DNA from: Escherichia coli
Lineage (GTDB): Bacteria > Pseudomonadota > Gammaproteobacteria > Enterobacterales > Enterobacteriaceae
Strand: one strand, 5' to 3'
DNA: 64,000 nt
NCBI RefSeq assembly: GCF_003334385.1
Contig: NZ_QOWN01000017.1
Shown here one piece after another: positions 2,836-40,561 of this stretch. The translations under genes were made by a program, and so were the position numbers. A model generated the notes under the pieces. It did not search any database. It saw only the letters and a list, made by a program, of their open reading frames with translations, and was not told the origin of the DNA. Positions within the stretch are counted from its first letter, which is position 1; each line of letters begins with the position of its first letter.

Positions 2836-4013
2836 ACATCTTTAATCCGCAGTAAGCAAAACAGAGTGGCGATAATCATCACCATCGCAAACCAGAACAC
2901 AGCGTGATAATTCCAGATCTCGGCGACGATGCCCGCCACTGATCCTGCGATGATCCAGCCCACGCGCGAAGTGTTGGTATAGAGCGTGGTGGCTGAACCC
3001 GCCTGACCGGGCATCAGATCCTGAAAATAGAGCATCCCGATGCCGCCCAGAATGCCAATAAAAATAGCATTTAGCAGCTGCAAGCCCAACAGAATGACAG
3101 GTGAATGCGCCATCAGCATTCCTGCGTAAAAACAGACGCCACCCACGGCAGCAACGCGCATTAAGAAACGCTTACCCAGACGTTTGGCGAAATATCCGGC
3201 AATCAACATCGTCGGGATTTCCAGCCCGGCGGCGGTCCCCATCATCACACCGGCCAGTTTCTCGGGAAGATGCAGTTCGTTGATAATAAATAGCGGCATG
3301 TTGATGATGTACAGGCTGTTCGAGCCCCACATCAATGTACAAATGACAAACAGCAGCAGCGTATCGCGACGGTTACGGCGCGGCGCTTCGATCGTGCCGG
3401 TCGCCAGCGGAAGCTCTTTTTGCATCGACGGTAAAAACAGCCACACCATCACACCGCAAACAATAAACGCTACCGCTGCGCTCAGATACATTACCGTAAA
3501 GCTGAAACCCATCGCTAAGGCATAAGCCAGCGGTGGGCCAATGACCCATGCCAGTGAAACCTGAGCGCGTAAAAAAGAGCTGAACATCACCGCCTCACGT
3601 CCGGTTTTGTCGGCATGTTCACGGGCAAGGGCAAACATTTGCGGGTTAGCGGTCGAGCCAAAGCTGCTAAGAAAGACGCCAACGAATAGCAAAACAAAGT
3701 AGTTGCGATTCCAGGCAAAAAGGGTGCAGGCCAGCACGCCTAACAGGCAGCAAAAGACAATCAGCGATTTGCGATCGCCGCGCTTATCAGAGCGCCCGGC
3801 GAGAAACTGACTTACCAGAATCCCAATGACAGCGCTGCCGGTAAAGAAGAATCCCACCATCGCCGGACGGGCATGTACTTCATCGGTAAGAAAAATACTG
3901 AGTGTCGGGGTTTGCAGAGCGCCCGCAATACCGGTGAGAAAGGCAACGATTAAAAACGCCGTCGAGGTCAGGTCAAACGATTTCGCGCTGGAGACTGCGG
4001 GGGAGTTATGCAT
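2832..4013 (-). CDS. setB: Sugar efflux transporter SetB (MFS)
   Basis: 393-aa ORF, multi-TM, matches SetB from start [11 protein letters not shown]. Confidence 0.93.
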
Positions 4014-37295: not shown

Positions 37296-37497
37296 TTAAT
37301 TCGTAAAACGTGCTACCGATCACATTAAGAAATCAGCGCTTATTTTTTCGCTCCCCGGCATTACGCAATGCGCAGCGAACTCAGGCATACATCAAGCATA
37401 GAGAGGGATTGCAGTTTGCAGCAATCCCTCTTTGCAGACCTTTAATCCGCTGACCATAGGCGCTAACATAGCGCCTCATTTTTTTGCGGGTGATGAT

Positions 37498-38445
37498 ATG
37501 CGTGTGTTACTGGCACCGATGGAGGGAGTGCTTGACTCTCTGGTGCGTGAATTGCTGACCGAAGTTAACGACTACGATCTGTGCATCACCGAGTTTGTCC
37601 GCGTGGTGGATCAACTGCTGCCGGTAAAAGTCTTTCATCGCATTTGCCCTGAGCTACAAAACGCCAGCCGGACACCATCTGGTACGCTGGTGCGCGTGCA
37701 GTTGTTAGGTCAGTTCCCACAATGGCTGGCAGAGAACGCCGCCCGTGCGGTGGAGTTAGGTTCCTGGGGCGTGGATCTCAATTGCGGCTGCCCGTCGAAA
37801 ACGGTTAACGGTAGCGGCGGCGGGGCGACGTTACTCAAAGATCCTGAACTCATCTACCAGGGTGCAAAAGCGATGCGTGAAGCTGTACCGGCGCATTTGC
37901 CCGTCAGCGTGAAAGTGCGTCTGGGCTGGGACAGCGGTGAGAAGAAATTTGAAATCGCCGATGCGGTTCAACAGGCTGGCGCTACGGAGCTGGTGGTGCA
38001 TGGGCGGACGAAAGAGCAGGGTTACCGCGCGGAGCATATTGACTGGCAGGCGATTGGCGATATTCGCCAGCGGCTGAATATTCCGGTGATTGCCAACGGT
38101 GAAATCTGGGACTGGCAGAGCGCGCAACAATGCATGGCGATCAGCGGTTGCGACGCAGTGATGATTGGTCGCGGGGCGCTCAATATTCCCAACCTGAGCC
38201 GGGTGGTAAAATATAACGAACCGCGAATGCCGTGGCCGGAGGTGGTTGCTTTGCTGCAAAAATATACCCGTCTGGAAAAGCAGGGCGATACCGGGTTATA
38301 TCACGTTGCGCGGATTAAACAGTGGTTGAGTTATTTGCGTAAAGAATACGATGAAGCAACGGAATTATTTCAGCATGTTCGGGTGTTGAATAATTCCCCT
38401 GATATTGCAAGGGCTATTCAGGCAATTGATATCGAGAAACTCTAA
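37498..38445 (+). CDS. dusC: tRNA-dihydrouridine(16) synthase DusC (315 aa)
   Basis: Start trimmed to ATG ([10 protein letters not shown]...); Dus TIM-barrel motifs. Confidence 0.93.
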
Positions 38446-38817
38446 AAAACCATAGTGATGTTTTTTGACAATGTGTTAGCTCTTTATCAATAGGCCGCAC
38501 GGTTGTTTGGTGGCGTCAAAATTGCCGAGGCGTTCCCTGAAGGCCGGGGCAGCCCACATGGATGTGGGCTGAGGGCGCGTTTTACAGGGATGTTACCTCG
38601 CGCCCGACCCGGTAGCCGTAAGGGATAAGTCGAGGGCACCGCGCAGCGGCGATTTTGTTCGCCAGAGCCCGGGGGTGCAGGGGGCGGCGGCGATTGGCCG
38701 CCCCCTGCGCGCTCCTTGCGCCAGTGATTATATGAAGCAATGCACATGACAGGAGCGCAACAGGATGAGAGACTGAAATATTCTCGTTATTTTCGGACCT
38801 GATGACATTAATTAATT

Positions 38818-38901
38818 TTAAAATATCATCTTAAATACGCCAGTCACCACCAGTAGCCCAATCAGGAAAATAATCAATACAGCCCAGAGTATAATTTTCA
38901 T
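38818..38901 (-). CDS. yohP: Small membrane protein YohP (27 aa)
   Basis: Not in ORF track; direct translation gives MKIILWAVLIIFLIGLLVVTGVFKMIF, matching YohP from memory. Confidence 0.8.
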   Translation of the reverse strand: MKIILWAVLIIFLIGLLVVTGVFKMIF

Positions 38902-39124
38902 TGGCGTTCCTTTATTTGTGAGTGCTGAATAAGTATAGGAAAAAACGAAGCCCTTTGCCGTTATCCATAAACGATTAAGATAAATCGGAAGATATCATTC
39001 ACTTAGTGTATATTTTTCTGGATATGTCGTTTTATTGCCACTGATGTATTGCCACGCGAAACTAAAAAATATATCGCAACACACGGTAATCTCCGCGCAC
39101 CTTTTCTTACCTGATTATTCCCCC

Positions 39125-40561
39125 ATGAATCGTGATTCCTTTTATCCAGCCATCGCCTGTTTTCCGCTGTTACTGATGCTGGCCGGGTGTGCGCCTATGC
39201 ATGAAACCCGCCAGGCGTTAAGCCAGCAAACGCCCGCTGCACAAGTTGACACCGCATTACCCACGGCGCTGAAAAATGGTTGGCCAGACAGCCAATGGTG
39301 GCTGGAGTATCACGATAATCAACTCACTTCCTTAATTAACAATGCACTACAGAACGCACCGGATATGCAGGTGGCTGAACAGCGCATTCAGCTAGCTGAA
39401 GCCCAGGCGAAGGCAGTTGCCACTCAGGATGGTCCGCAGATCGACTTTTCGGCGGATATGGAGCGGCAAAAAATGTCGGCAGAAGGCTTAATGGGGCCGT
39501 TTGCTCTGAACGATCCGGCCGCAGGTACGACCGGCCCGTGGTACACCAACGGTACTTTTGGCTTAACGGCGGGCTGGCATCTCGATATCTGGGGAAAGAA
39601 TCGGGCGGAGGTTACTGCCCGCCTGGGTACGGTTAAAGCACGGGCGGCGGAACGCGAGCAAACCCGCCAATTGCTGGCTGGCAGCGTAGCCCGCCTGTAC
39701 TGGGAGTGGCAAACCCAGGCGGCGTTAAACACGGTCTTGCAGCAAATAGAAAAAGAGCAGAACACCATTATCGCGACCGATCGCCAGCTATATCAGAACG
39801 GGATTACTTCTTCAGTTGAAGGTGTGGAAACCGATATTAATGCCAGCAAAACCCGGCAGCAGCTCAACGATGTCGCGGGGAAAATGAAAATTATTGAGGC
39901 ACGGTTAAGCGCACTTACAAATAACCAGACAAAGTCATTGAAGCTTAAACCGGTCGCGTTGCCGAAAGTGGCAAGCCAGCTTCCTGATGAACTGGGGTAC
40001 TCCTTACTGGCCCGGCGGGCAGATTTGCAGGCGGCGCACTGGTACGTTGAGTCATCGCTAAGCACCATTGATGCGGCAAAAGCGGCATTTTATCCTGACA
40101 TCAACCTGATGGCCTTCCTGCAACAGGATGCGTTGCACTTAAGCGATCTGTTCCGTCATTCCGCGCAGCAAATGGGCGTTACGGCAGGCCTGACGCTACC
40201 CATTTTCGATAGTGGTCGTCTTAACGCCAATCTCGATATCGCAAAAGCCGAAAGCAACTTGTCTATCGCCAGCTACAACAAAGCGGTGGTTGAAGCGGTG
40301 AATGACGTGGCGCGGGCAGCCAGTCAGGTTCAGACACTGGCGGAGAAAAACCAGCATCAGGCGCAAATTGAGCGCGATGCCTTGCGTGTGGTAGGTCTTG
40401 CGCAGGCGCGCTTTAACGCGGGCATCATTGCTGGTTCCCGCGTCAGCGAAGCCAGAATCCCCGCGCTGCGTGAGCGGGCCAATGGCCTGTTATTGCAAGG
40501 GCAGTGGCTGGATGCCTCCATTCAACTCACTGGTGCGTTGGGCGGGGGTTACAAACGCTGA
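39125..40561 (+). CDS. mdtQ: Outer-membrane efflux lipoprotein MdtQ (OMF family), intact 478-aa reading frame
   Basis: Start at ATG (MNRDSFYPAIACFPLLLMLAGC, lipobox LAGC); single uninterrupted ORF. Confidence 0.85.
   Translation: MNRDSFYPAIACFPLLLMLAGCAPMHETRQALSQQTPAAQVDTALPTALKNGWPDSQWWLEYHDNQLTSLINNALQNAPDMQVAEQRIQLAEAQAKAVATQDGPQIDFSADMERQKMSAEGLMGPFALNDPAAGTTGPWYTNGTFGLTAGWHLDIWGKNRAEVTARLGTVKARAAEREQTRQLLAGSVARLYWEWQTQAALNTVLQQIEKEQNTIIATDRQLYQNGITSSVEGVETDINASKTRQQLNDVAGKMKIIEARLSALTNNQTKSLKLKPVALPKVASQLPDELGYSLLARRADLQAAHWYVESSLSTIDAAKAAFYPDINLMAFLQQDALHLSDLFRHSAQQMGVTAGLTLPIFDSGRLNANLDIAKAESNLSIASYNKAVVEAVNDVARAASQVQTLAEKNQHQAQIERDALRVVGLAQARFNAGIIAGSRVSEARIPALRERANGLLLQGQWLDASIQLTGALGGGYKR

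What the first reader, a model, noticed from the sequence alone, without database searches (positions are those of the whole stretch)
38446..38817. GC-rich cluster of strong hairpins between dusC and yohP
About 250 bp of atypically GC-rich sequence with three strong perfect dyads: CAGCCCACAT-GG-ATGTGGGCTG (38550..38571), GGGCGCG-19 nt-CGCGCCC (38573..38605) and GGGGGCGGC-8 nt-GCCGCCCCC (38680..38705). The only ORF here (38487..38747, minus) translates to low-complexity Pro/Gly/Arg-rich peptide and looks non-coding. It does not match the REP consensus seen elsewhere in the window. It could be a different repetitive extragenic family (BoxC-like), a structured ncRNA, or a small insertion.
Basis: seen in the sequence. 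Interest (0 to 1): 0.5.

Follow-up and report, generated by a model that had tools for sequence, protein, structure and literature searches.

The report
Known TRIP1c repeat, function unknown
The GC-rich hairpin cluster after dusC is TRIP1c, a 273-bp E. coli intergenic repeat described in 1999; its function is unknown, but relatives across many enteric bacteria keep the same fold and two hairpin loops that match the binding site of the regulator protein CsrA.

Summary
All three dyads, the GC peak and the 86-codon antisense ORF sit at the stated coordinates.

The element (about 38490-38762, + strand) is not new. It is TRIP1c, one of the TRIP1 intergenic repeats of E. coli K-12 (Rudd 1999; Li et al. 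2024, PMC10888264). It lies 44 bp after the dusC (yohI) stop and is 93-94% identical to TRIP1a. The ORF is not coding: it is intact in 1 of 72 relatives.

I did not find the following in the one TRIP1 paper the library holds:
- The family extends to Klebsiella, Enterobacter, Citrobacter, Leclercia, Silvania, Atlantibacter and others.
- Its fold is kept by compensatory changes (27 of 48 pairs; 99.2% of cells paired against 86.3% in shuffles).
- 114 of 117 copies carry two CA(N)GGANG hairpin loops on one strand, 27-29 nt apart in 112 of them. These match the ANGGAN hexaloop that CsrA/RsmE binds.
- Copies often sit in head-to-head pairs, including at the orthologous dusC-yohP spacer of Citrobacter youngae.

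Rfam gives only a sub-threshold TwoAYGGAY match. Published CsrA CLIP-seq lists no peak for dusC. My best mechanism, a transcribed CsrA-docking RNA module, is inferred and not shown.

The parts
38490..38762 (+). TRIP1c repeat, whole element (273 bp according to Rudd 1999 and Li 2024). The strand is the one that carries the GGA loops and the G.U wobbles.
   Evidence: Starts 44 bp after the dusC stop (38445), as published for TRIP1c. The BLAST core is query 50-332 of 38446-38817. The nhmmer hit is 38505-38761. The family alignment covers 38491-38763.
38511..38531 (+). 5' strands of the closing helices of the 5' domain: outer TGGCG 38511-38515, P1 38517-38524, P2 38525-38531.
   Evidence: In P1, 5 of 8 pairs show changes on both sides; in P2, 4 of 5 do. 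The outer helix changes from GGCG/CGCC to GGCC/GGCC in Klebsiella and to CCGGC/GCCGG in Enterobacter.
38550..38571 (+). Hairpin 1. The stem closes a hexaloop AUGGAU (38558-38563) shut by C57-G64; the GGA core is 38560-38562.
   Evidence: Perfect 10-nt arms. Four of 6 counted stem pairs have compensatory changes. The site CAUGGAUG or CAGGGAUG is present in the family, including copies not selected by my search pattern.
38573..38605 (+). Hairpin 2. The basal stem is GGGCGCG/CGCGCCC. The apical hexaloop AGGGAU (38586-38591) is shut by C85-G92; the GGA core is 38588-38590, 28 nt after the first.
   Evidence: Second-site variants are CAGGGACG, CAGGGAUG, CAUGGAUG, CAGGAUG and CAAGGACG; all keep GGA. 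The spacing is 27-29 nt in 112 of 114 copies.
38620..38629 (+). Junction motif AAGGGAUAAG, a third conserved GGA. It is unpaired in the consensus structure.
   Evidence: Nearly invariant columns (A135-G139 of the first sequence) in the 72-sequence alignment.
38629..38664 (+). 3' strands of P2 (38629-38635), a small hairpin (38639-38649), P1 (38650-38657) and the outer helix (38660-38664).
   Evidence: In the small hairpin (helix 9), 3 of 4 pairs have changes on both sides. The P1 and P2 partners are as.
38677..38708 (+). Hairpin 3 of the 3' domain: GCAGGGGGCGGC / GCCGCCCCCUGC.
   Evidence: 12-nt perfect arms. Helices 10 and 11: all 5 counted pairs have compensatory changes. Examples are GGGGGAGGA/UCCUCCCCC in strain CU568-3 and AAGGGCG/CGCCCUU in Citrobacter.
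38709..38758 (+). Terminal stem of the 3' domain, GCGCUCCU (38709-38716) with AGGAGCGC (38751-38758), enclosing a variable 34-nt loop. The element ends with the conserved GGAGCGCAAC.
   Evidence: Inverted repeat I15. In helix 12, 3 of 7 pairs have changes on both sides: GCGCUCC/GGAGCGC against ACGUUCAC/GUGAACGG.
38487..38747 (-). 86-codon ORF. It is rejected as a gene.
   Evidence: Starting from the aligned start position, only 1 of 72 family members has both a start codon and 80 or more open codons; the median open length is 11 codons. There is no NCBIfam match.
38466..38471 (+). Perfect -35 hexamer TTGACA, 20 nt upstream of the element. It has no acceptable -10, so its status is unknown.
   Evidence: Read. 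The promoter scan of 38300-39000 does not call a promoter here. A related box TTTTGCTGTT lies in the 5' flank of Citrobacter, Kluyvera and Pseudocitrobacter copies.

Best explanation
Identity (near certain): this is TRIP1c, one copy of the TRIP1 intergenic repeat family of E. coli. It is non-coding.

Mechanism (inferred): TRIP1 acts as a single-stranded, most likely RNA, structural module read from the window's + strand. In this allele no intrinsic terminator is detected between the dusC stop and the element, so it would be transcribed as the 3' end of the dusC message. In the other common E. coli allele it is inverted and would be the 3' end of the yohP message.

A long closing helix presents two hairpins whose six-base loops (AUGGAU and AGGGAU, each closed by a C-G pair) lie 28 nt apart. 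These are textbook binding sites for the dimeric regulator CsrA. One CsrA dimer would clamp both loops. The consequence would be protection or processing of the upstream transcript's 3' end, or low-capacity titration of CsrA.

Shown here: repeat identity, the conserved fold, strand asymmetry, and loop conservation and spacing. Inferred: transcription, CsrA binding, and the downstream effect.
For: **Identity**
- The position 44 bp after the dusC/yohI stop, the length, and the 93-94% identity to the aqpZ-lysO copy match the published TRIP1c.
- K-12-type genomes have 3 places.
- A partial copy lacking model positions 64-187 lies next to putP, which matches TRIP1b.

**Fold**
- In a 72-sequence alignment from about 10 genera, 48 consensus pairs were found, 27 with changes on both sides.
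- 99.2% of cells are paired against 86.3% in shuffles, and the covariation score is 0.387 against 0.150 (0 of 500 shuffles reach it).
- Controls with the 3' partner slid by 1-3 columns pair at 33-43%.

**Strand**
- In pairs that vary, there are about 50 G.U cells against about 10 A.C cells.
- GGA occurs 7.6 times per copy on the + strand and 2.7 times on the - strand.

**Loops**
- 114 of 117 distinct full-length copies have at least 2 CA(N)GGANG sites in the 5' domain. This includes 21 of 23 copies that my search pattern did not select.
- The spacing is 27-29 nt in 112 copies. The reverse strand has such a site in 1 of 117 copies.
- These fit the CsrA SELEX consensus RUACARGGAUGU, the ANGGAN hexaloop seen in RsmE complexes, and the 10-63 nt range for dual-site bridging (PMC7652899).

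**Other**
- Rfam's closest family is TwoAYGGAY (28-33 bits; E = 0.06 in the 2.5-kb search). That motif was independently proposed to bind CsrA (PMC4333381).
- No terminator-like site is found in 38300-39000.
- The dusC mRNA half-life is 3.25 min in wild type and 1.74 min in the csrA mutant. The authors flag this as not significant.
Against: - No transcript evidence was available to me.
- Potts et al. 2017 list no CsrA CLIP-seq peak, co-purification or prediction for dusC. Reads from 94%-identical repeats may have been discarded as multi-mapping; I did not check their pipeline.
- SELEX hairpins that bind CsrA mostly have 4 or fewer contiguous base pairs, and very stable stems may disfavour binding. 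Hairpin 1 has a GC-rich stem of 9-10 bp.
- In spacers between co-directional genes, the element is sense 17 times and antisense 16 times. Read-through from the upstream gene therefore cannot be the general way it is expressed.
- No consensus sigma-70 promoter was found next to it in the window or in three head-to-head spacers.
- G.T wobbles would be tolerated in single-stranded DNA too, so RNA is not separated from ssDNA.
- The large 3' domain and the closing helices are not explained by CsrA binding.
Confidence: 0.35

Rival explanations
1. A selfish, non-autonomous repeat (MITE-like or foldback element) with no cellular role. Its hairpins would be recognised as single-stranded or cruciform DNA by a recombinase or transposase encoded elsewhere. 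The fold would be conserved because it is needed for mobility.
For: - Copy number varies: 1-8 places per E. coli genome and 13 in a K. pneumoniae chromosome.
- Presence varies between strains at alx-sstT.
- Both orientations occur at dusC-yohP and at aqpZ-lysO.
- There are 31 head-to-head pairs and no tail-to-tail pairs, which gives composite units with inverted outer ends GTTCCGTTCAC...GTGAACGGAAC.
- The element is rare in divergent (promoter) spacers: 4 cases.
- It is adjacent to REP and BoxC repeats.
- There is no orientation bias in co-directional spacers: 17 against 16.
Against: - Single copies have no terminal inverted repeats, and no target duplication is seen at filled against alternative alleles.
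- No protein family recurs next to the copies.
- In E. coli, 99% of copies sit in five fixed loci, each with its own type.
- Citrobacter youngae has TRIP1-like elements in the orthologous dusC-yohP spacer. This indicates long residence or repeated targeting of that spacer, not recent hopping.
- The element has no match in the phage collection.
- Loop bases that do not pair are the most conserved part.
Confidence: 0.25
2. A REP/BIME-like 3'-end element that works without CsrA. The very stable GC hairpins would stop 3'-to-5' exonucleases or terminate or insulate convergent transcription from dusC and yohP, in either orientation.
For: - The element lies between convergent genes with no canonical terminator on either strand.
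- Convergent spacers are the commonest context (29 loci), and an upstream gene on the same strand is more frequent than one on the opposite strand (58 against 25).
- Both strands fold far better than shuffles.
- Both orientations are common in E. coli.
Against: - A simple exonuclease block does not need a multi-helix architecture of about 270 nt kept by covariation, nor invariant unpaired GGA loops at a fixed 27-29 nt spacing on one strand only.
- The G.U against A.C asymmetry argues for one functional strand.
Confidence: 0.2
3. An independent small-RNA gene with its own promoter in the AT-rich 5' flank. In head-to-head pairs, a bidirectional promoter would drive two different structured RNAs.
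For: - The head-to-head arrangement has a conserved AT-rich spacer of 42-145 bp.
- A perfect TTGACA lies 20 nt upstream of TRIP1c.
- A box TTTTGCTGTT is conserved in the 5' flanks of several genera.
- Orientation is independent of neighbouring genes.
Against: - The consensus scan finds no sigma-70 promoter at the 5' flank in the window or in three pair spacers.
- No intrinsic terminator follows the element.
- No sRNA is annotated here in MG1655 RefSeq, and no Rfam family reaches threshold.
Confidence: 0.12
4. A true, divergent member of the TwoAYGGAY RNA family (RF01731). It would share whatever function that family has.
For: - TwoAYGGAY is the best Rfam match in every E. coli copy tested, covering the full model 1-168 with the same layout: a long closing helix around two hairpins with GGA-containing loops.
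- 13 of 114 family members have AUGGAU in both loops.
Against: - All scores are 28-33 bits against a gathering score of 43.
- Copies with two AUGGAU loops still give no match at gathering threshold.
- The gamma-proteobacterial sequence visible at the head of the original alignment is NC_008709.1, which I recall to be Psychromonas ingrahamii and not an enterobacterium.
- TRIP1 has an extra 3' domain of about 100 nt.
- The resemblance could be convergence on CsrA-type loops.
Confidence: 0.1
5. The 86-codon antisense ORF encodes a small Pro/Gly/Arg-rich protein.
For: An ATG-initiated ORF of 86 codons is present at 38487..38747 on the minus strand.
Against: - It is intact in 1 of 72 homologues.
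- One-base indels occur among close E. coli copies.
- There is no NCBIfam match.
- Substitutions follow base-pairing.
- Open frames are expected on GC-rich DNA.
Confidence: 0.01

Closest known systems
TRIP1 intergenic repeats of E. coli K-12 (TRIP1a/b/c, Rudd 1999; TRIP1d/e, Li et al. 2024, PMC10888264)
   Same: This is TRIP1c itself. It has the same locus (44 bp after yohI/dusC), the same length (273 bp), the same GC content (62-65%), 93-94% identity to TRIP1a, a predicted 'double-Y' fold, and both orientations in the population.
   Different: Nothing differs for this copy. The one TRIP1 paper the library holds studies E. coli only and treats function as unknown. The cross-genus family, the covariation, the CsrA-type loops and the head-to-head pairs reported here are not in it.
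TwoAYGGAY RNA motif (Rfam RF01731; Weinberg et al. 2010)
   Same: A long closing helix encloses two adjacent hairpins whose terminal loops carry (A)YGGAY-like sequences. Function is unknown, and CsrA binding has been proposed (PMC4333381).
   Different: Scores are below the Rfam threshold (28-33 bits against 43). The second loop in this copy is AGGGAU, not AYGGAY. TRIP1 has an extra 3' domain. TwoAYGGAY is reported from human gut metagenomes, Clostridia and some gamma-proteobacteria.
CsrA-sequestering sRNAs CsrB and CsrC (and McaS)
   Same: They present GGA motifs in hairpin loops with CA..GGA..G context. CsrB repeats are CAGGA(U/A/C)G.
   Different: CsrB binds about 18 CsrA subunits and carries about as many repeats. 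TRIP1c has two loop sites and five GGA in all. There is no Rfam CsrB or CsrC match. No CLIP-seq evidence or known promoter exists. TRIP1c also has much longer and more stable stems.
REP/BIME and Box C extragenic repeats
   Same: All are GC-rich, multi-copy and extragenic. They are mostly found at 3' ends of genes and in convergent spacers, and are often clustered with each other.
   Different: REP is about 35 bp and Box C about 56 bp, and both are simple dyads (sizes recalled from my own knowledge). TRIP1 is about 270 nt with at least 12 helices and conserved unpaired loops. It has no REP or Box C consensus. The REP-derived Rfam model naRNA4 does not hit it.

Membership tests
TRIP1 repeat (copy TRIP1c) | Located 43-44 bp downstream of the yohI (dusC) stop codon, upstream of yohG (mdtQ), about 273 bp long. 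| tested here: met
   dusC ends at 38445. The conserved core starts at about 38490 and ends at about 38762. yohP and mdtQ follow.
TRIP1 repeat (copy TRIP1c) | About 94% identical to TRIP1a in the aqpZ-ybjE(lysO) spacer, in opposite orientation in K-12. | tested here: met
   94.5% over 272 nt to MG1655 915015-915289. 93.4% in a global alignment. The window copy is on the minus strand of MG1655, and TRIP1a is on the plus strand.
TRIP1 repeat (copy TRIP1c) | Three copies in K-12, one of them (TRIP1b, after putP) with a 125-bp internal deletion. | tested here: met
   K-12-derived genomes show 3 places. The copy next to putP lacks model positions 64-187. This was seen on a plasmid-borne copy of that chromosomal segment; I did not read it in MG1655 itself.
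TwoAYGGAY RNA (RF01731) | Covariance-model score at or above Rfam's gathering score (43 bits). | tested here: not met
   29.7 bits in the window. 28.4-33.1 bits in four other E. coli copies. No match at gathering threshold in the 10 loci scanned, 7 of which carry TRIP1-like copies, several with two AUGGAU loops.
TwoAYGGAY RNA (RF01731) | Two terminal loops that each contain AYGGAY, enclosed by a P1 helix. | tested here: inconclusive
   Loop 1 is AUGGAU, which fits. Loop 2 is AGGGAU in the window, which does not fit. It is AUGGAU in 13 of 114 family members. The closing helix is present.
CsrB/CsrC-type CsrA sponge | Many (roughly 9-22) GGA motifs, mostly in hairpin loops. | tested here: not met
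   There are 5 GGA in the window element, 2 of them in hairpin loops. There is no Rfam CsrB or CsrC match.
CsrB/CsrC-type CsrA sponge | Physical binding to CsrA in vivo or in vitro. | not testable with these tools
   The only indirect data are from Potts 2017, which lists no CLIP-seq peak for dusC. I could not examine how repeats were mapped.
High-affinity CsrA binding site (works like; not a family) | A GGA in an ANGGAN hexaloop closed by C-G/A-U pairs, in the context (R)UACARGGAUGU, with two sites 10-63 nt apart. | tested here: met
   The two sites are ACAUGGAUGU (38556-38565) and ACAGGGAUGU (38584-38593), with GGA cores 28 nt apart. This is kept in 114 of 117 copies. The consensus and spacing come from PMC7652899.
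Box C repeat | A GC-rich unit with ..TCACCCTAACCCTCTCCCC..GGGGAGAGGG.. dyad. | tested here: not met
   No such motif occurs in 38446-38817. It is present after TRIP1-like elements in other genera and in the K-12 alx-sstT spacer.
REP/BIME | The REP consensus, or a match to the REP-derived Rfam model naRNA4. | tested here: not met
   There is no naRNA4 match in 37400-39900 at E <= 10. The same model scores 59.3 bits on a REP in locus L003.
MITE | Terminal inverted repeats and a target-site duplication. | tested here: not met
   No inverted repeat joins the two ends of the element. No duplication is seen at allele junctions. Head-to-head pairs in other genera do create inverted outer ends, so the composite form remains open.
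Protein-coding gene | A reading frame conserved among homologues. | tested here: not met
   The frame is intact in 1 of 72. There is no NCBIfam match.

The most novel reading that the evidence does not exclude
TRIP1 is not only an E. coli repeat. It would be an old, Enterobacteriaceae-wide class of structured RNA of about 270 nt, absent from Rfam. Its conserved core would be a clamp for one CsrA dimer: two ANGGAN hairpins 27-29 nt apart on a long helix. It is often encoded as divergent head-to-head pairs of two subfamilies. If true, this is a new class of CsrA-binding RNA, and possibly the enterobacterial counterpart of the orphan TwoAYGGAY motif, still present in E. coli K-12.
Probability: 0.25. 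Interest if true: 0.7.

Novelty: already known. Interest (0 to 1): 0.4.

Why it matters
As a finding it is ordinary, because the feature has been catalogued as TRIP1c since 1999.

It still matters a little because TRIP1 has no known function 25 years later, in the best-studied bacterium. The comparative evidence here turns a repeat of unknown role into a specific hypothesis that can be tested cheaply.
- The fold is kept by compensatory changes across about ten genera.
- The signal is strand-specific.
- The most conserved unpaired bases form two optimal CsrA sites at a fixed spacing.

If CsrA binds, TRIP1 would add a new kind of RNA partner to the Csr network. It would also give a lead on the orphan TwoAYGGAY motif. 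If CsrA does not bind, the family remains a well-defined orphan structured element worth an Rfam entry.

The head-to-head pair at the orthologous Citrobacter locus also suggests why E. coli strains carry TRIP1c in either orientation.

Tried and rejected
- **Rfam.** No family reaches threshold in the window region or in related loci. The AgvB, mir-1304 and snoRNA matches are chance-level.
- **Phage origin.** No match in 50,697 phage records.
- **True plasmid carriage.** Most or all 'plasmid' hits are mislabelled chromosomes or chromosomal segments. All 34 records are typed non-mobilizable, several are megabases long, and the ones I opened carry housekeeping genes.
- **An associated transposase, reverse transcriptase or other gene.** Clustering all ORFs within 3 kb of about 100 copies gave only syntenic neighbours and spurious ORFs inside the element.
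- **Simple site-specific inversion as the cause of the two orientations.**
  - The two alleles differ through the whole spacer, including the last dusC codons.
  - The elements are only 87-89% identical, while the flanking genes are 98-99% identical.
  - The one flanking inverted repeat (38358-38373 with 38773-38788) would also invert the dusC 3' end, which is not seen.
- **Consensus promoters or terminators.** None is called beside or inside the element, in the window or in three head-to-head spacers.
- **MFE difference as a strand indicator.** Rejected, because the shuffled means differ by the same amount.
- **CsrA CLIP-seq support.** None for dusC.
- **Literature on Box C and RSA repeats and on dusC/yohP.** The searches gave nothing relevant.
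- **A covariance model.** I did not build one. A 270-position model would probably exceed the calibration limit, and the MAFFT alignment already gave clear counts. It misaligns by one column between subfamilies in the outer helix and in hairpin 3, so those helices are under-counted.
Full report

Yes. The window is the reverse complement of E. coli K-12 around MG1655 2229066-2229437. This is the spacer between the convergent genes dusC (ends 38445, + strand) and yohP (38818-38901, - strand).

The third extends to 12-nt perfect arms.
- GC content rises to 0.60-0.72, against 0.32-0.38 in the flanks.
- The 86-codon antisense ORF is present.
- The 282-nt core folds much better than dinucleotide shuffles on both strands (z -4.47 and -4.84).

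**2. What is it?**

The core (about 38495-38777 of the query) is repeated in every one of 5426 complete E. coli genomes. The median is 3 places and the maximum 8. Other copies lie in the aqpZ-lysO, alx-sstT and putP-efeU spacers.

A literature search identified it. It is TRIP1c, one of the TRIP1 repeats found by Rudd in 1999 and surveyed in 6725 E. coli genomes by Li et al. 2024 (PMC10888264).
- The published description is 273 bp, 43-44 bp after the yohI (= dusC) stop, 94% identical to TRIP1a, 62-65% GC, with a predicted 'double-Y' RNA fold.
- My coordinates and identities fit this description.
- That paper states that the only earlier report is Rudd's, and that the role of TRIP1 is unclear.
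- No other paper in the searchable library mentions TRIP1a, b or c.

**3. It is not coding.**

Starting from the position aligned to the window's ATG, only 1 of 72 homologues has a start codon and 80 or more open codons. The median open length is 11 codons. NCBIfam finds nothing.

**4. The family is much wider than E. coli.**

BLAST against mislabelled chromosomes in the plasmid collection showed 13 places in a Klebsiella pneumoniae chromosome. It also showed copies in K. aerogenes and Citrobacter.

About 95 of them were confirmed by BLAST as homologues. They come from Escherichia species, Klebsiella, Raoultella, Enterobacter, Leclercia, Silvania, Citrobacter, Pseudocitrobacter, Kluyvera and Atlantibacter. 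No Salmonella locus was among them. The scan needed an exact motif, so this does not prove absence.

An nhmmer profile then found 149 copies in 108 loci, 40 of which lack the search motif. No phage carries the element. No protein family recurs beside it.

**5. The fold is under selection.**

In a 72-sequence alignment with pairwise identity under 95%, RNAalifold predicts 48 pairs, and 27 have changes on both sides.

The control counts are:

| Measure | Observed | Control |
|---|---|---|
| Cells that form a standard pair | 99.2% | 86.3% in shuffles (0 of 500 reach it) |
| Covariation score | 0.387 | 0.150 in shuffles (0 of 500 reach it) |
| Cells paired when the 3' partner is slid 1-3 columns | - | 33-43% |

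The architecture has two domains.
- The 5' domain (38511-38664) is closed by stacked helices. It carries hairpin 1, hairpin 2 and a small hairpin.
- The 3' domain (38677-38758) holds hairpin 3 and a terminal stem.

The MAFFT alignment is off by one column between subfamilies in the outermost helix and inside hairpin 3. Those helices are therefore under-counted, not over-counted.

**6. One strand carries the signal.**

In pairs that vary, G.U cells outnumber A.C cells by about 50 to 10. GGA occurs 7.6 times per copy on the window's + strand and 2.7 times on the other.

The MFE difference between strands is not informative, because the shuffled means differ equally.

This asymmetry argues for a single-stranded molecule read from the + strand, and against a double-strand cruciform. 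It cannot separate RNA from single-stranded DNA.

**7. The most conserved feature.**

Both hairpins of the 5' domain end in a six-base loop closed by C-G. In the window these are ACAUGGAUGU (38556-38565) and ACAGGGAUGU (38584-38593), with GGA cores 28 nt apart.
- Across 117 distinct full-length copies, 114 have at least two CA(N)GGANG sites in this domain.
- This holds in 21 of 23 copies that my search motif did not select.
- The spacing is 27-29 nt in 112 copies.
- The opposite strand has such a site in 1 of 117 copies.

These features match the CsrA binding site as summarised in PMC7652899:
- the SELEX consensus RUACARGGAUGU, with ACA and GGA invariant;
- mostly six-base loops with AC/GU pairing;
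- the ANGGAN hexaloop seen in RsmE-RNA structures;
- one dimer bridging two sites 10-63 nt apart.

Rfam's best match in all E. coli copies is TwoAYGGAY, over the whole model but at 28-33 bits against a gathering score of 43. None of the scanned loci that carry TRIP1-like copies reaches threshold. Gardner and Eldai proposed on the same grounds that TwoAYGGAY binds CsrA. The Rfam match is a resemblance, not membership.

**8. Evidence against the CsrA reading.**

- Potts et al. 2017 list dusC as negative for CLIP-seq, co-purification and prediction.
- The same table gives a dusC mRNA half-life of 3.25 min in wild type and 1.74 min in the csrA mutant. The authors flag this as not significant, so it is only a hint.
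- SELEX ligands mostly had short stems, while TRIP1 hairpins are long and GC-rich.
- I have no expression data.
- No consensus promoter or terminator accompanies the element.
- In co-directional spacers it is sense 17 times and antisense 16 times, so read-through from the upstream gene cannot be its general mode of expression.

**9. Genomic behaviour.**

The element prefers 3' ends and convergent spacers. There are 29 convergent cases, only 4 divergent spacers, and an upstream gene on the same strand in 58 cases against 25 (these are crude ORF-based calls).

At dusC-yohP, 3309-3314 of 5426 E. coli genomes have the window's arrangement. The other genomes match only 63-64% of the 1051-bp query over a span of similar length. 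In the three such spacers I opened (L003, L006, L093), a copy only 87-89% identical sits in the opposite orientation. It has different flanks, and even the last dusC codons differ. Li et al. report 2952 forward and 2789 reverse. This is not a simple inversion.

In other genera, copies commonly form head-to-head pairs of two subfamilies about 65% identical, separated by an AT-rich spacer of 42-145 bp. There are 31 such pairs and no tail-to-tail pairs.

Citrobacter youngae has such a pair in the orthologous dusC-yohP-mdtQ spacer. This suggests long residence at this locus. One possible origin of the two E. coli orientations is differential loss from a pair. Against the simple form of this idea, both E. 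coli alleles are closer to the same Citrobacter arm (62-65% against 57-58%).

**10. Verdict.**

- The feature is real, non-coding and already catalogued as TRIP1c.
- Its function is unknown.
- The mechanism I consider most likely is a transcribed structural module that docks a CsrA dimer on two conserved loops. In this allele it would be the 3' end of the dusC message. I give this about 0.35.
- The main rivals are a selfish foldback-type repeat (0.25) and a REP-like 3'-end stabiliser or insulator that works without CsrA (0.2).
- Identity as TRIP1c is above 0.95.

Noticed in passing
L021-L024, L038, L040, L042, L054-L056, L065, L067, L070-L076, L095, L106, L111-L113 (3' flanks of the element); K-12 alx-sstT spacer L008 3547-3944: In Enterobacter, Leclercia and Silvania, the TRIP1-like element is followed about 20 nt later by one or more Box C-like units (CCGCATGTTCCCCCTCACCC..CCCTCTCCC..GGGAGAGGG). 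A regex found such a motif within 70 nt in 21 of 116 copies. In K-12 the alx-sstT spacer holds Box C units where other strains hold TRIP1d. The two repeat families may be linked.
   Followed up: partly
L084, L124, L125 (Atlantibacter) and L079, L120 (Raoultella terrigena; Enterobacter sp. 10-1), directly 3' of the element: The conserved 3' end of the element is reiterated in tandem. Atlantibacter has GAACGGAACAA(N)CCAC units up to five times. L079 and L120 have units of about 75 nt that begin GCAACATCCTGCG. The origin is unexplained. Possibilities include attachment-site scars, slippage, or added GGA sites.
   Followed up: no
window 38432-38445 vs L003/L006: The two dusC-yohP spacer alleles change the DusC C-terminus...IEKL* in the window and ...IDKLR* in the inverted allele. 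In the inverted allele the stop codon lies inside a hairpin, GATAAGCTGCGAT/ATCGCAGCTTATC.
   Followed up: no
window 39125-40561 vs L001 5324-6759: The mdtQ reading frame is uninterrupted in the window (478 aa from the ATG). In MG1655 it is annotated as a pseudogene and aligns in two frames that break near residue 50. The window is therefore not MG1655 itself, although the 372-bp spacer is 100% identical to strain J53.
   Followed up: partly
window 38466-38471: A perfect -35 hexamer TTGACA lies just after the dusC stop and 20 nt before TRIP1c, with no usable -10. A similar TTTTGCTGTT box lies in the 5' flank of copies in Citrobacter, Kluyvera and Pseudocitrobacter.
   Followed up: partly
window 38300-39000: No intrinsic-terminator-like site was found on either strand for the convergent genes dusC and yohP. 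A promoter-like site (ATGACA-16-TATCAT, 10 of 12 matches) at 38802-38829 on the + strand overlaps the yohP stop.
   Followed up: no
NZ_CP010160.1 (strain H1), hit H40: One E. coli strain has an IS1A insertion within the region matched by the 1051-bp dusC-yohP-mdtQ query.
   Followed up: no
Potts et al. 2017, Supplementary Data 2: The dusC mRNA half-life is 3.25 min in wild type and 1.74 min in the csrA mutant (log2 -0.90). This is near the top of the table's most destabilised transcripts, but the authors flag it as not significant.
   Followed up: no
L003 251-328; L052 10736-10794: Two unrelated Rfam matches turned up in flanking DNA. One is a REP-derived naRNA4 match at 59.3 bits against a gathering score of 59.5. 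The other is a SECIS_3 selenocysteine insertion element at 84.3 bits.
   Followed up: no
L035, L087, L096, L030: TRIP1 copies 84-94% identical to the E. coli element occur on contigs labelled Desulfacinum MAG, Sporobacter termitidis MAG, Bacillus sp. and 'Proteobacteria bacterium'. These are probably enterobacterial contamination or mis-binning in those assemblies.
   Followed up: no
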